Part shown: in pieces, positions 6,001 through 12,000 of the stretch | Position numbering within the stretch: position 1 is the first letter of the stretch | Layout of the letters: every line of letters begins with the position of its first letter | Assembly: GCA_050248615.1 (NCBI GenBank) | Contig: JBFWSA010000004.1 | Span: forward strand, 1 to 64,000 | DNA: 64,000 nt | Direction: 5' to 3' | Source of the DNA: Simkaniaceae bacterium | GTDB lineage: Bacteria > Chlamydiota > Chlamydiia > Chlamydiales > Simkaniaceae | Position numbers: made by a program

Positions 6001-9000
6001 GATCTACTAAATATCGTAAAAATCTTTCGCATTTTGGTAGAAAAGTTTCCGTTGGACTTTAAGGTCGTAGACACTCAGCGCTTCTTTCATCGACTCCATG
6101 AGCTGATTATAGGTTAGAAAGAGGGTGTCTGGAGGAACATTGCTTCCAAAAAAACACCGATCCTCTCCAAATATCTCTACTCCCGCGCGTAGAAACCGGG
6201 AGATATTTTCTTGATCTAGCGTTTTAAAAATAAGACCGATTCCACTCAGTTTTAAATGAGTATTAGGATAGCTAGATAGGAGAGACATCTCCTCCTTCCA
6301 CTTACTAAATCCCCCATCGGAAAGGTCCTCAGGCCATCCCAGATGATCTAACACAAAAAGAATATCATCATGCTCTTTTACAACTTTTGCAATCTGGGAA
6401 AGTTGATGTCCAAAAAAACATAGATCAAACGTTAAGTTTTGCTTGGCTAAAGCAGCAAACCCTCGATGCCAATGAGGATCGGAGGGAAGATCTGAGTCAA
6501 AAAGAACCTGTCGAATCCCCCGAACATTGGGGAACTGACAGTGGTCTTTAATCACATTTTCAATATCAGGATCTCTTAAATCTGCAAAGGGAACAATCGC
6601 ATGAGGAAATCCATGACTATCTGCAATTTTCTGTAACCACTTTGTTTCCTGAAGAGCTTGTTTCACCAATCCATTCGCTTCTAAATGGACACATTTAGTG
6701 ACATGATGGGGTTTGATAAGGGCTTGATAATCATCAATCAGAAAATTTTTCCGAATTTTTTCAAGACTCCCCAGCTGTTTTTTAAACGCGTGCTCCTTTT
6801 GCATTAGCCAGGGATAATCTCCATGAGATAAATCCCATAAATGCATATGCGCATCGATTATTTCTTCACTATACAATTTTATCATTCTTTTCTCCGACCG
6901 ATTTCCCTATCATAAAAATCACAATACTGATTTAATGGACTATTAACACACACGTGCTTTTTTGGATGGGTGAAATCCTTTGCATCACAAAAAACTCTAT
7001 AAAAAATTGATGCAGAGTAATTCCCATCTTTGATATGAAATAAGATTTTTCAATAATGATAAAATACGTGATGAATAGAAAGCCCTCTCTCCTCCTGTTC
7101 ACTCTCTTGCACTTATGTGTTTCCACCATTTCATCTCCTGTTTTTGCCGACACCCCTAATCAAAAAATCAAATGGGCAGAAAAAACCCAACCTGAACCCC
7201 CCATCATTCCTCCAGACACCTCTCCCGGTTATACGATCAACTTCGATAATGTGTCGATCATCGAATACATCAAGTTTATCAGCAAAATCAGCGGAATGAA
7301 TTTTATCTATGACGAGACAGATCTTACTTTTAACGTGACTATTGTTTCTGAAGAACCGACAAAACTTGTCAATGTGATGTCAGCACTGATCCAAGTCTTG
7401 AGAATCAATGGCTTTGATTTGATTGAACAAGGGAACAACTTAGTCATCAGTAAAACAGGTGCGATCAAGCAACTTGCCACTGTTGTCTCTCAAGAAGCTC
7501 CCATCGAGGGAAGTGTGATTCCCCCTATTATGACCCGCGTATTTAAAGTAAAAAATGCCAACCCGATGATTTTGGCTGGGCTCGTCCGCCCTTTACTTTC
7601 AGATAATGCGGTTGTAGAGGTTTCTGAAGAAACGCGCCACCTCATCATCACAGATATCACGCAAAACATCGAACAGATCCAGCGCCTATTCTTAAGCCTA
7701 GATATCCCGATCCCTTCACTCGAAATTGACGCCTATCGCGTCCTCAATAATTCTCCAGACACTCTTGTCTCCTTAGTCACTCAAATTCTCACGCCCATTT
7801 CTGAAGGGAACCCTCTGATTTTTGTAGCACAAGACTCCACTAACTCGATTTTTATTGTTTCCACACCCTTCCTCACTGAAAAAGCTATTGAAATTCTTAG
7901 AGATCTCGATACCCCCCCGTCTCTAACGCAGCGTTTCAGCGGACCCATTACAGGGAAAAATGTTCTCATCTATCACATCATGAATAAGCCTGCCGATATT
8001 CTTCAAAGTGCAATTAAGCAAATCGAAAGCAACCTAGCCCAAATGGGCCCCGCATCTGCAGATATCACGCAAACACTGAACACCATGAAATTCATCCGCG
8101 AGAGCCATTCCCTCCTGTTCACAGGAACAGAACAATCCCTCGCTGAAGTGCGCTCCATTTTAGAAGATCTCGATACCCCTTACACTCAGCAAGAACTCGA
8201 ATACGTCCGGGGTGAATACTACTTCTATAAGATCCAGTATGGAGATGAAACGCAAATTGCCCGAGCACTCGAAAAATTCTTGGAAAACTTAAAAAAGTCT
8301 CCTTACATGAATAAAGATTTAATCGATACGATTGAATCGATGAAATGGATCAAGGAAAATGACTCCTTACTGTTTACGGGAGATCAAAAATCTTTAGACC
8401 AGATCAAAAAACTCCTCCCCTCTCTTGACGTTCCCCCAAATGTTGGTAAAAAAGCTTCTAAAATCCCTCTCAGCAGTGATTTTTACTCTTATTCTCCTAG
8501 CAATTTGACACCTCAAGAACTTCTCAAACAGGTACAGGATTACTACAAAAGCTTGAAGGAATCGGATTTATCCGACGCAGCCTTTATGCATGCCCTCGCT
8601 TCAGCTAAAATTGTTCCCTCTTCAAATGCGGTTGTTTTCACCGGCGATCCAGCCTCTCTTGCCCATATCCAAGAGCTCGTGATATCCATGGATAAACCTT
8701 CAGGCATTGTAGAGCAAGAGATGCATGTCTATGTTTATAAAATCCAGTATGTCGATCCCGAATACGTTGAAAGCTCCCTACAAAAGCTCGGGAAATCGGT
8801 TCCTTCTACTGACCCTCTAGCTCAAACGATCGACAATATGAAATACATCCCCGAATCCAATACACTCGTCTTTAGAGGACCTCCTTCTGCGATCAATCAC
8901 ATCAAACTCATTCTTCCCACGCTGGACAATGCCGAAACAGCTAAAGTAGAACAGGAACATAAACCTACATACCTTGTTTACTCCCTCCAAAATGCCCCCG

Positions 9001-12000
9001 GAAACGAAGTATTAAAAGAGCTAGAACAGACAGCCAAAACAATCAAACCGAATACAGCAGCAAACAAAGCTCTGATTGAGTCGATTAAAAATGTCAAGTG
9101 GATTGAGTCTACAAACTCCTTGATCCTTACAGGAACTCCCCCAGTGATTCAACACTTGGAACAGATTATCGCCAAGTTTGATATTCCCCGCCCAGAACAA
9201 CAAAAATCCTCCTCATTCTATGTTTACAAACCCCAAGGGATTAGTGCCAAAGAGTTCTTAAAGCGCGTGAATACTGCTGCGAAAGAAATGGAAACTGCTG
9301 GACTTGCTGACAATGCTCTGATCAAAACCATGGAATCGGGAACTCTTGTTTCGAATAATACCGCAGTCATGTTCACTGGAACCCCTGATGGGATCGAAAA
9401 ACTTAAAGCTGTCCTCCAAACCTTTGATACATACAAAGAAGAGCAACCCAAAACAAGTCAATTCTATATCTATAAACCTAGTTCCATATCCGCTGAACAA
9501 CTGCAAAAAGACTTTATAGCTGCTGCCAAACAAATGGAAAAATCGGGACTTCAAGATCCTGAGCTGATCGATGCTATGGAATCTGCAAAGGCAGAAAAAG
9601 GGCGGGTCTTATTTACAGGAACACCGGATGCCATTGATAAAATCAAAGTGATGGCTCGGATCTATGATACAGAAGAAGGTGTAGAAAAAAATTCTGAATA
9701 TTATATTTTTAGACCCGTCAATCAATCCCCTCAATCGGTTGTTGAACAGGCTCAGCACACTGCAGCTGAAATGAAAGACTCAGGTTATGCAGATCCCAAT
9801 GTCATGAAAGCCCTCCAGTCCGCTTCCATTGTCTCCAAAGGGACGGGTGTTCTTTTTACTGGAACTCCCAGTGCAATTGCGCAAATTAAAACCATTGCTC
9901 CGACGTTTGATTCAGAATCTGCCCCCGCGGTCTCTCAGTTTTTTGTTTATCAGCCTCAACACATCTCTGCTGATGCCCTTAGAGAACATGCCCGCAAAGT
10001 GGCAATTGACATGGAAACGAGTAATTTTGCCAATCAAGCTGTCATTCAAACCTTAAAAACAACGCGTCTGGTTTCGAATGGAAAAGCCGTTCTTTTTACA
10101 GGAACTCCTCAATCCCTTTTAGAAGTGAAAAACCTTCTTCCTACTCTAGATTTTGCAGAAGGCCCCGTAGATGTCGGTCAAACCACGTTTGTTGTTTATA
10201 AAATCCAACATGTTTCTGGTCCTGTCTTAATGGGTTTTCTCCGCAATATGGCAAACGACTTCCGTAGCGCCAACTCTAAGCAAGAGGACCTGATCACAAC
10301 CCTCAATAACATGCGGTATGTCAAAGACACAAATTCCCTGATCTTTACGGGAACTCCAGATGCTGTTCAACAAGCCATTGCTTTAGCAAAACAATTTGAT
10401 ATTCCAGAATTGGGACAAGAAACCCCCGCCCGCGCTCCTTCCGACTTCCTCATCTATAAACCTAAGTATGTCCCTGGAGAAGAACTCATTAAAATCTTGC
10501 ACGATTTTCAACTCAACCTCATCAATTCAGGTGTCAGTAACCAAGGTCTTTTTGATACCATCAACAACTTGAAGTGGATGGAACGGACCTCTTCCATCTT
10601 AGTTTCAGGAGATGAGGATGATATCCAAAAAACGTTAAAGCTTTTAGAACGTTTTGATGTCCCTGGACCCGGAATCCCCCAAGGAGAATCGGGCATTGAA
10701 ACCGTCTCCGACATGAGCTTCTTGATCTATAAATTGCAATACCACTCTGGAGGCGAAATCCAGACAGCTATTAAACAGATCGGCGATGATTTGGAAAAAG
10801 CTAAAAGTGCAGGCAATGAGGACCTCGTTCAAGCGATCAAAACACTCCAATGGATCGACATCACGAACTCCTTGATCGCCACCGGAAAAGCTGACGCTCT
10901 TGGGAAACTCAAAGAGCTCATTAAAAGCATTGACATCCCTTTAAAACAGGTCTTTGTTGAAGTCCTCGTACTAGAAACAAGTATTGGAAATCAGCTCTCT
11001 TTCGGATTACGTTGGGGCTCTCAAGGAGTCTACCGCAATAAGTTCTCCTATGGAACCTATATGTCCCAACCCAATAGCCAACAAAATCCTGATCCCTTGG
11101 GAGGCGTCTTTACATCTAATCTTTCGCAAGTGACAGCAACGAATACCCCTACCGGCCAATTTATTCCCATCTCTGATGGGATGGATTTAGGAATCATTGG
11201 AGATATTATCCTCCATAAAGGGCAAACCTATCTAGCTTTGGGTTCTCTAGTAGATGCCGTCCGTGCAGATGGAGATAGTACCGTCGTGATGAACCAAAAA
11301 ATCATCACTCAAGACAACAAAATGTCCACCTTTTTTACAGGGCAAAATATCCCCTATACGGGCTCTGTCGTGACTAATACGGGTCAAAACACAACAGTCC
11401 AAAATTCCAACCTTGAGTACCGAGATGTGGGTGTTAGCTTAAGCATTACCCCTACAGTCGGAAACAATGACATCATTACTCTTGCCATCGAAGAAGATAT
11501 TTCGGAACAGGTCCAAACAGAACAAGGAAGTGATACAAATACAGGGCAGGTTTTTGGAATTACTACCTCAAAAACCACCACGAAAACGGTGGTCAGTGTT
11601 CCTGATAAAAGCTTCCTTGCGCTCAGTGGATCGATCCAAGATACCACCACCCATACCCGTACGAGCGTTCCTTGCCTCGGAGGGCTCCCCCTCATTGGAG
11701 CTGCCTTCAGCCAAAACGACTCAAACTATTCCACATCTAATATCATCATCTTCATTCGTCCGCAGATCATCAAGTCGTTTGATACCTACGCAGAAATCAC
11801 GGAGAGACAAGAAGACATCTTCCGCTCTCAATCCAATGCAGAAGACTTCGATGCAGGGCTAGAACTCGTAAAAACCCCAGACGATTCCTACTAGACTTCT
11901 GACCTTTTTCATGGTAGAATCCCTTCCTCAATTCACGAGGAATACATGAGAGCGAAACTGCTAGTTTCTTTACTTTTTTTACTCGCTCTTGCTGGCTGTT

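What a model noticed while it worked through the whole genome (the two positions that open the first line are those of the whole stretch)
7071..11894. Type III secretion secretin (CdsC) stretched to 1,607 aa by a train of ~80-residue N-domain repeats
The secretin encoded in the conserved cdsQ-pkn5-cdsC neighbourhood (g00235) is 1,607 aa long: an N0 domain and a normal C-terminal secretin pore are separated by at least ten tandem ~80-aa units, each ending in a (L/V)xFTG motif, three of which Pfam recognises as Secretin_N ring-building domains. I propose that these units stack as extra periplasmic rings, giving a secretin channel several times longer than any characterised one, and that repeat number is a tunable ruler: matching open frames in other Chlamydiales range from about 700 to 2,500 aa. 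This would make chlamydial injectisomes a natural series for how secretin length is matched to envelope architecture.
Evidence so far: Pfam: type_II_gspD_N0 56-124, Secretin_N 155-215, 554-622, 636-708, Secretin 1397-1568. Motif scan: [LVIM][LVIMA]F[TRS]G at 348, 433, 521, 599, 766, 846, 927, 1007, 1090, spacings 78-88 aa (one double gap), with alignable units of the type FYVYKPQ.IS...(40)...V.FTGTP. Neighbours g00231 FliMN_C (SctQ) and g00232 Pkinase upstream, as for CT672-CT674 of C. trachomatis (recalled). Two other secretins exist: g00937 (781 aa, with T2SS E/F genes) and g01417 (567 aa). Search with the C-terminal 407 aa in 120 Chlamydiales genomes: 104 hit; best-matching open frames 1615-1617 aa (G119, G098, same family), 1359, 1194, 1465, 1435, 1754, 1772, 1619, 1593, 1602, 1673 aa, up to 1938-2519 aa (G038, G076, G0 [...]
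(Added by a program. Inside this text positions count along the whole contig: contig position 1 is position 1 of the stretch shown here. "Call 12" and the like, gene names such as g00115 and contig names such as C1 are that model's own, and its searches are not shown. The text may have been shortened before it was handed on; [...] marks where a part breaks off. The agent that wrote the report below was given it as the finding of a first reader that could run no searches.)

Follow-up and report, generated by a model that had tools for sequence, protein, structure and literature searches.

The report
Extra-long chlamydial injectisome secretin
The outer-membrane pore of this chlamydia's type III injection needle carries twelve copies of a ring-building domain that normally occurs once, and across its relatives the copy number rises together with the length of the protein thought to set needle length, which suggests injection machines about twice as tall as the one imaged in Chlamydia trachomatis.

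Summary
The gene (7056-11894, 1,612 aa) is the type III secretin CdsC. It reads N0-N1-N2, then 12 tandem ~83-aa copies of the N3 domain, then the pore. Of 120 chlamydial loci, 63 carry 4-21 copies and 57 carry one; the expanded ones form one clade in a marker tree. New here: the length of CdsP, the likely needle-length ruler, tracks repeat number at about 20-27 residues per repeat (rho 0.72, 43 genomes; independent contrasts r 0.68; hold-out rho 0.55, 61 genomes), while periplasmic CdsD stays at 255 aa. This supports repeats stacked in series into a longer barrel, by estimate 65-80 nm. Most of the clade also has a short paralogous secretin. Ring stacking itself is not shown, and the link is weak in genomes lacking a second CdsP-like gene. 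Long N-domain trains also occur in planctomycete type II secretins. Verdict: new variant of a known kind.

The parts
7056..11894 (+). cdsC (sctC), type III secretion secretin, 1,612 aa
   Evidence: ORF; Pfam; synteny; tree
7056..7148 (+). Probable Sec signal peptide (aa 1-31)
   Evidence: Read from the sequence (basic N-region, hydrophobic stretch, small residues at the end); no predictor was run
7236..7442 (+). N0 domain (aa 61-129)
   Evidence: PF21305, E 1.4e-10
7524..7931 (+). N1 and N2 domains (aa 157-292), without the extra helix of the repeats
   Evidence: Alignment; two such domains in 114 of 120 proteins
7959..10661 (+). Eleven extra N3-type repeats R1-R11 (aa 302-1202), each beta-alpha-alpha-beta-beta-alpha; R6-R9 are the most alike (32-47%)
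   Evidence: models; fold searches
10716..10937 (+). R12, the pore-proximal N3 that all chlamydial CdsC examined have (aa 1221-1294)
   Evidence: The repeat profile finds one such domain (52-95 bits) in 57 of 57 non-expanded loci
10944..11891 (+). Secretin pore domain and C-terminal tail
   Evidence: PF00263 aa 1402-1573, E 2.5e-33
2..1246 (+). 3' part of cdsP (CT671 / SctP-like needle-length ruler homologue), cut by the contig start; at least 414 aa here, the 5' part ends contig C37
   Evidence: tblastn; frame check; position after cdsO in relatives
1340..2008 (+). Second, short cdsP-like gene (222 aa, 'P2') with the same C-terminal domain
   Evidence: tblastn; profile A1
2067..3230 (+). cdsQ (SctQ)
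   Evidence: TIGR02551 125.9 bits over cut-off 100.8
3246..4865 (+). pkn5 Ser/Thr kinase with a C-terminal SpoIIE-like domain
4869..6885 (.). Two inserted genes between pkn5 and cdsC: Amidase_3-like (+, 4869-6002) and Amidohydro_2 (-, 6007-6885)
   Evidence: inserts at this spot vary between relatives

Best explanation
This is the injectisome secretin. The pore oligomerises in the outer membrane and N0 docks on the inner-membrane ring CdsD, as in other injectisomes (established for SctC; inferred here). Tandem duplication of the N3 domain has put 11 extra ring-building domains in between. They most likely stack in series into a longer periplasmic sleeve around the rod and needle (inferred). 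A needle must pass through that sleeve before it reaches the host, so the ruler CdsP lengthens in step, by about 20-27 residues per added domain (correlation shown; causality inferred). At roughly 3-4 nm per ring the basal body would be about 65-80 nm, against 34 nm measured in C. trachomatis (estimate). Whether the sleeve fits a wide envelope or props the envelope open locally is not known.
For: Each unit is an N domain: 10 Pfam Secretin_N stretches; model of R9-R11 at pLDDT 87.9; 11 of the top 12 structural matches among 48,161 chains plus the first ten are secretin N regions, best Z 8.6 (XcpQ), InvG N3 Z 7.7 with rmsd 1.9 over 62 residues. Across 642 repeats the strand and helix hydrophobics and Tyr5, Gly56, Asp72 are conserved at 92-98%. 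In Thermus PilQ consecutive N domains form discrete stacked rings (PMC5745081, passages). CdsP length against repeat number: Spearman 0.72 in 43 genomes, slope 22 aa; contrasts r 0.68 in 41 genomes, 0.53 without the two 21-repeat genomes. Hold-out predicted in a note beforehand: rho 0.55 in 61 of 69 genomes, slope 21; within-genus r 0.72 (41 genomes, 11 genera). Controls are flat for CdsD, CdsN, CdsO, Pkn5 and CT668 in contrasts. Periplasmic CdsD is 253-255 aa in 30 of 30 expanded loci, so it does not shorten to compensate.
Against: No assembled structure or image supports stacking. The models have low pTM (0.33, 0.45), so domain-to-domain geometry is undetermined. The sign test on contrasts is weak: 20 of 32 (p 0.2), or 22 of 32 with equal branch lengths. 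CdsQ also correlates slightly (r 0.33, 1.8 aa per repeat). In genomes without the second CdsP-like gene the link is weak: rho 0.25 (17) and 0.22 (26, hold-out), against 0.94 (26) and 0.76 (35) with it; this split was found after the fact. Single-N3 genomes have CdsP of 218-765 aa, so CdsP length has other causes. CdsP's ruler role rests on gene position, weak profile hits and a literature label. The per-repeat arithmetic fits only with the YscP calibration (0.19 nm per residue, recalled); at full extension (0.37 nm, PMC6972891) it gives 7-10 nm per repeat. Shigella Spa32 is reported not to act as a simple ruler (PMC2835726).
Confidence: 0.7

Rival explanations
1. The repeats fold but do not form a straight stack. 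They splay out or concertina in the periplasm as a flexible tether, scaffold or spring, and basal-body height is little changed. CdsP lengthens for a related but separate reason, such as needle reach to the host membrane.
For: Low pTM and short low-confidence linkers between units. [quoted passage not shown] The CdsP link is weak in genomes lacking P2.
Against: It does not explain a steady 20-27 residues per repeat within genera and along contrasts. The units keep the conserved features of the ring-forming N3.
Confidence: 0.15
2. The long protein works only with the short paralogue (N0-N3-pore, 567 aa, contig C30), for example in mixed rings where a few long subunits act as struts, so no full-length barrel forms.
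For: The short paralogue is found in 54 of 74 expanded-clade genomes searched and nests inside the expanded clade in the pore-domain tree.
Against: 20 of 74 genomes gave no short-paralogue match with this query, including 15 of 15 of family f7, yet the 7 f7 loci read have 7-11 repeats. In G000 it lies outside the type III cluster, next to transporter-like genes.
Confidence: 0.07
3. Near-neutral repeat expansion. The extra domains are tolerated, and the CdsP correlation reflects shared ancestry or a general tendency to longer proteins.
For: Copy number changes often, by gain and loss of internal units. Contrast sign tests are weak.
Against: No complete member of the clade has dropped below 4 copies (59 of 59). 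Terminal units keep their position-specific identity across families. The correlation survives contrasts, within-genus centring and a hold-out, and neighbouring proteins do not lengthen.
Confidence: 0.05
4. It is a type II secretion GspD and not part of the injectisome.
For: TIGR02517 (GspD) scores 383 over its cut-off of 351; TIGR02516 (SctC) scores 86, under 238.
Against: It lies downstream of cdsQ/pkn5 here, and cdsQ or pkn5 lies in 53 of 63 expanded loci. It groups with the single-N3 secretins of the same cluster. Chlamydial CdsC is known to be GspD-like (PMC3459982, section 10; PMC4682100).
Confidence: 0.03

Closest known systems
Chlamydia trachomatis CdsC (CT674, 921 aa; PMC4682100, PMC3459982)
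   Same: Same position at the end of the cdsD-cdsN-cdsO-cdsP-cdsQ-pkn5 cluster, GspD-like pore, N0-N1-N2-N3 order.
   Different: Twelve N3-type domains instead of one, and no 250-aa extension before N0.
Thermus thermophilus PilQ (six N rings, 35 nm; PMC5745081)
   Same: Extra N domains in tandem that stack as rings and span a wide periplasm; the best experimental precedent for the mechanism.
   Different: A type IV pilus/DNA-uptake secretin with 6 N domains, against 15 here (N0, N1, N2, 12 N3). No needle or ruler is coupled to it.
T2SS GspD / XcpQ / ExeD / PulD (PDB 5wq8, 4e9j, 6i1x, 6hcg)
   Same: Top fold matches for the repeats; passes the GspD profile cut-off.
   Different: One N3 only; encoded with T2SS genes. 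The variable N3 loop is replaced here by a conserved extra helix.
Giant type II secretins annotated from Phycisphaerae/Planctomycetes metagenomes (3,700-6,900 aa; uncharacterised)
   Same: N0, a long train of Secretin_N domains (39-50 in 4 of 4 scanned), then a pore.
   Different: A different unit (the chlamydial N3 profile finds at most 2 weak matches per protein), so an independent expansion. Named as type II secretins by their sources, and no ruler protein is available as a read-out.

Membership tests
Secretin superfamily | C-terminal secretin domain | tested here: met
   PF00263 115.5 bits, cut-off 27.5
Secretin superfamily | Periplasmic N0 and KH-like N domains before the pore | tested here: met
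   PF21305 and 10 PF03958 stretches; folds
Secretin superfamily | Forms a 12-16-mer outer-membrane ring | not testable with these tools
   The full ring exceeds the size limits of the tools
Chlamydial CdsC (T3SS SctC) | Encoded at the end of the cdsD...cdsN-cdsO-cdsP-cdsQ-pkn5 cluster | tested here: met
   cdsP(3' part)-P2-cdsQ-pkn5 in the window; cdsD, cdsN, cdsO at the end of contig C37; same order in relatives
Chlamydial CdsC (T3SS SctC) | Orthology with the single-N3 secretins of that cluster in other chlamydial families | tested here: met
   Pore-domain tree of 154 sequences rooted on the genome's own GspD: the expanded proteins group with f3/f4/f10/f13/f35 at 0.988
Chlamydial CdsC (T3SS SctC) | Chlamydia-specific ~250-aa hydrophilic extension before N0 (PMC4682100) | tested here: not met
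   N0 starts at about aa 58. The feature is not general: N0 starts at aa 50-2010 among single-N3 orthologues
Proteobacterial SctC (YscC/InvG type) | TIGR02516 above cut-off; N0-N1-N3 architecture | tested here: not met
   86.2 bits, cut-off 238.45; has N2. Expected, since chlamydial secretins have a separate origin (PMC3459982)
T2SS GspD | TIGR02517 above cut-off | tested here: met
   383.3 bits over 351.35, summed over 6 stretches
T2SS GspD | Encoded with gspE/F and pseudopilins | tested here: not met
Window neighbours are type III genes.
SctP / FliK rulers (for CdsP, window 2-1246) | Gene between sctO and sctQ | tested here: met
   PF16789 YscO-like for the upstream gene
SctP / FliK rulers (for CdsP, window 2-1246) | C-terminal T3S4 (Flg_hook) domain after a long low-complexity region | tested here: inconclusive
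   Atlas top hits FliK, SPAN and HpaP at 0.89 (a lead); Flg_hook in 5 of 39 members, best E 0.034; E 4e-4 for one f10 protein; no PDB sequence match. Pro/Glu/Lys-rich N-part. CT671 is called the YscP-like ruler in PMC5040114 (passages)
SctP / FliK rulers (for CdsP, window 2-1246) | Its length sets needle length | not testable with these tools
   Needs imaging

The most novel reading that the evidence does not exclude
One half of the chlamydial phylum builds injectisomes with periplasmic barrels of roughly 45-110 nm, whose height is set digitally by N3 copy number and to which the needle ruler is tuned. Many of these species may build two sizes of injectisome: a long one (long CdsC with long CdsP) and a short one (the N0-N3 paralogue with the ~220-aa second ruler P2), for different envelope zones or life stages. 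P2 was seen only where the short secretin is present (both 27, neither 9, short secretin only 8, P2 only 0, of 44 loci).
Probability: 0.25. Interest if true: 0.9.

Novelty: new variant of a known kind. Interest (0 to 1): 0.72.

Why it matters
Injectisome basal bodies are treated as 30-35 nm machines, and rulers have been studied only against the outer needle. A natural series with 4-21 N3 domains, in which the ruler homologue scales with secretin length, gives a genome-level read-out that extra N domains add length in series. It makes two old questions directly testable by imaging existing cultured strains: whether the ruler measures from the export gate through the whole basal body, and whether secretin length follows periplasm width or sets it. 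It also bears on the much longer planctomycete secretins, which have no such read-out, and it warns that these CdsC proteins pass the GspD profile and can be mis-annotated.

Tried and rejected
Whole-protein self-BLAST shows only the diagonal; the repeats show up with unit-wise and profile tests. Frame length as a proxy for repeat number across the whole phylum was rejected; it holds only inside the expanded clade (r 0.995). Compensation by a shorter CdsD was rejected. A three-copy complex prediction of R9-R11 gave no answer, score 0.00 against a mark of 0.42; it counts neither for nor against ring formation. A profile of the CdsP C-terminal domain found no PDB sequence. The first fold search, on a single-sequence model, gave low TM-scores because domain orientations are arbitrary. 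The metagenome scan with CdsQ gave 6 loci, 2 long enough to read; one has 13 repeats with a 577-aa CdsP frame, the other at least 10 repeats (cut by the locus end) with 616 aa; neither was used in the statistics. Among 46 single-N3 genomes, N0-to-N3 length correlates with CdsP by rank (0.49) but not in contrasts (r 0.21, p 0.15). The two f10 genes between cdsO and cdsQ did not match profile A1, so their assignment as CdsP rests on position and one weak Pfam hit. Look-ups of earlier findings by words and by sequence found nothing on CdsC. The cryotomography paper on environmental chlamydiae (Pilhofer 2014) and a 2023 review of chlamydial type III secretion are not held; either could hold measurements or remarks that bear on this.
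Full report
THE GENE. Several same-family relatives start with the same upstream N-terminus, which favours 7056. 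G+C is 43.4% against 42.9% for the genome. Pfam gives GspD-N0 at 61-129, Secretin_N in 10 stretches and Secretin at 1402-1573. The closest named records (57-74% identical over the C-terminal 394 aa) are mostly labelled Simkaniaceae, Simkania or Neptunochlamydia where a family or genus is given, so the window is probably from that family (inferred).

THE REPEATS. They are 12-47% identical to each other. A profile of any 11 scores the twelfth at 54-83 bits; 500 shuffles per trial reach at most 14. Two shorter domains before them (N1, N2) lack about 15 residues in the middle. AlphaFold models of R4-R9 (no alignment, pLDDT 69.7) and of R9-R11 (60 sequences, pLDDT 87.9) give every unit the order strand-helix-helix-strand-strand-helix: the N-domain fold with one extra helix where InvG N3 has its variable insertion (PMC6155069, passages). 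Against 48,161 solved chains the twelve best matches are all secretin N regions, best Z 8.6; KH-type domains follow from Z 7.1 down, so the margin is modest. pTM is 0.33 and 0.45, so the models say nothing about how units pack on each other.

IT IS CdsC. cdsQ and pkn5 lie upstream, separated from cdsC by two unrelated genes. The contig begins inside cdsP; cdsD, cdsN, cdsO and the start of cdsP end contig C37. The genome has two other secretins: 781 aa in a T2SS-like cluster and a 567-aa close paralogue. NCBIfam would call the window protein GspD (383 over 351; SctC 86 under 238), which is expected because chlamydial CdsC derives from the type II/phage branch (PMC3459982, passages and section 10; PMC4682100, passages).

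DISTRIBUTION. 394 of 400 chlamydial genomes scored have a match. I read 120 loci, chosen by hand and not at random: 60 from the 150 best matches and 60 of the 80 genomes. An iterated repeat profile finds 4-21 units in 63 loci of 14 families (59 complete proteins) and exactly one unit in the other 57 loci of 21 families. That one unit is the ordinary N3 next to the pore, so the array is a tandem amplification of N3. In a tree of seven cluster proteins without CdsC or CdsP, the 42 expanded genomes among 90 form one clade with support 1.0. In the pore-domain tree they also group together, but the basal node has support of only 0.2. The last units keep their positional identity across families, while the middle ones are gained and lost.

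THE RULER TEST. If the units stack in series, the needle has further to go. The gene between cdsO and cdsQ is the CT671 homologue, described as the YscP-like needle ruler (PMC5040114, passages), and in Yersinia needle length is linear in YscP length (PMC2835726, passages). My own support for its family is a lead only. 89 of 120 loci held complete CdsC and CdsP. Median CdsP is 468 aa in 43 expanded genomes and 326 aa in 46 single-N3 genomes. Within the 43, Spearman rho is 0.72 and the slope 22 aa per repeat. Independent contrasts on 41 of them give r 0.68 (p 1e-6), and 0.53 without the two 21-repeat genomes, but only 20 of 32 informative contrasts share a sign. In contrasts CdsD, CdsN, CdsO, Pkn5 and CT668 are flat and CdsQ is weakly positive (0.33). 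Periplasmic CdsD is 253-255 aa in 30 of 30 expanded loci and 252-284 aa in 47 single loci. I wrote the prediction down and tested it on 69 further genomes using stop-to-stop frame lengths only, with repeat number estimated from CdsC length (r 0.995). Two had no match and six were dropped as cut or broken (G293, G378, G212, G287, G353, G383). In the 61 left rho is 0.55, slope 21. In the 48 I judged least likely to be cut, a tier set after seeing the lengths, rho is 0.69, slope 27.5. Within genera r is 0.72 (41 genomes, 11 genera). In 24 genomes of genera not used before rho is 0.43, p 0.03. By family over all rows the results are weaker (f1 0.47, f9 0.35, f7 0.51; none under p 0.05). After the fact I found that the link is tight where a second short cdsP-like gene exists (rho 0.94 of 26; hold-out 0.76 of 35; contrasts 0.79, 14 of 17 signs) and weak where it does not (0.25 of 17; 0.22 of 26; contrasts 0.32). 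I cannot explain that split.

MECHANISM AND SIZE. Shown: identity as CdsC, the fold and number of the units, their clade, the correlation. Established elsewhere: N3 is a ring-building motif needed for secretin oligomers (PMC6155069), and in Thermus PilQ six consecutive N domains form six stacked rings in a 350-A particle that spans a wide periplasm (PMC5745081, passages and section 5). Inferred: the 11 extra units stack as rings. Taking 10-12 nm for the pore part (recalled), PilQ gives about 4 nm per ring. At 3-4 nm each, 11 rings add 33-44 nm to the 34-nm basal body of C. trachomatis (PMC4682100), giving about 65-80 nm. The ruler slope of 20-27 residues equals 4-5 nm at the YscP rate of 0.19 nm per residue (recalled from Journet 2003, not read), a fair match, but 7-10 nm at full extension (0.37 nm, PMC6972891, passages). 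In C. trachomatis the periplasm is 28.6 nm at the pole with injectisomes and 13.8 nm at the other (PMC4336559, passages), so a long secretin might prop the envelope open rather than match it. A five-layered envelope is described for arthropod Rhabdochlamydia (PMC9723776, passages); whether it relates is unknown.

THE SHORT PARALOGUE. 54 of 74 expanded-clade genomes hold a second, 470-630-aa secretin; 20 gave no such match, including all 15 of family f7. All 30 read are N0-linker-N3-pore, and they form one clade nested among the long proteins. With the short ruler-like gene P2 this raises the idea of a second, short injectisome, which rests on co-occurrence with probably one shared origin.

NOVELTY. 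Ten literature searches (listings and starts of abstracts) showed no paper on a repeat-expanded CdsC or on ruler-secretin co-scaling. The library lacks most subscription papers, Pilhofer 2014 and the 2023 review were not held, and I read no supplements; Supplementary Fig. 2 of PMC4682100 and Fig. 6B/Text S4 of PMC3459982 treat CdsC architecture and may bear on this. PMC11317633 (passages) gave nothing on envelope width. Public databases name a 14-repeat Simkania protein only 'secretin N-terminal domain-containing protein'. Long N-domain trains are not unique: the profile search of 1.84 billion proteins returned, among its best 150, proteins of 3,700-5,500 aa, of which 4 of 4 scanned have 39-50 Secretin_N domains, named from Phycisphaerae where named. 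Earlier notes of this scan report that family (unchecked AI notes). What is new here is the expansion inside an injectisome, its confinement to one chlamydial clade, and the coupled ruler.

VERDICT. Observation confirmed; interpretation partly supported; new variant of a known kind; interest 0.72. Confidence in stacked extra rings is 0.7. The two-size injectisome reading has probability 0.25 and would deserve 0.9.

Noticed in passing
G000 C30:18617-20320 (-), L019:10618-12321; L171-L200: A short paralogue of cdsC (N0, a short linker, one N3, pore; no N1 or N2 in 30 of 30 read). It nests within the expanded clade, lies away from the type III cluster and was found in 54 of 74 genomes searched.
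   Followed up: partly
window 1340-2008 (+): A second, short cdsP-like gene (P2). It was seen only in genomes that also have the short secretin (27 both, 9 neither, 8 short only, 0 P2 only, of 44), and the CdsP-repeat correlation is far tighter where it is present. The two probably share one origin, so the counts are not independent.
   Followed up: partly
L126:15945-19865, L127:16002-19535 (family f10): An independent expansion of a different domain: N1 plus six N2-type domains plus N3 in 2 of 4 f10 genomes, N1 plus two N2 in the other two. The gene between cdsO and cdsQ is 398 and 391 aa in the former and 320 aa in the one comparable latter.
   Followed up: partly
L161:484-5775, L164:559-6363 (family f8): CdsC with an insert of about 1,000-1,200 aa between N2 and N3, rich in Glu/Lys/Gln and coiled-coil-like by eye: possibly a third way to lengthen the secretin.
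   Followed up: no
L117:11157-19433, L118:514-8064, L158:466-6135 (family f16): CdsC with 1,100-2,000 residues before N0 and no Pfam match there in the one scanned.
   Followed up: no
L115:478-7213: Tandem duplication of a single-N3 cdsC (955 and 956 aa) with one gene between the copies.
   Followed up: no
L076 and L095 (G154, G036): Expanded CdsC proteins that have lost N2.
   Followed up: no
window 4869-6002 (+): An Amidase_3-like gene directly after pkn5, on the same strand as the type III cluster; a cell-wall amidase here could help a large basal body through peptidoglycan, but inserts at this spot vary among relatives.
   Followed up: no
P0119, P0126, P0131, P0140: Secretins of 3,700-4,800 aa with 39-50 Secretin_N domains; where named, such proteins come from Phycisphaerae/Planctomycetes. 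Earlier findings of this scan describe the same family.
   Followed up: partly
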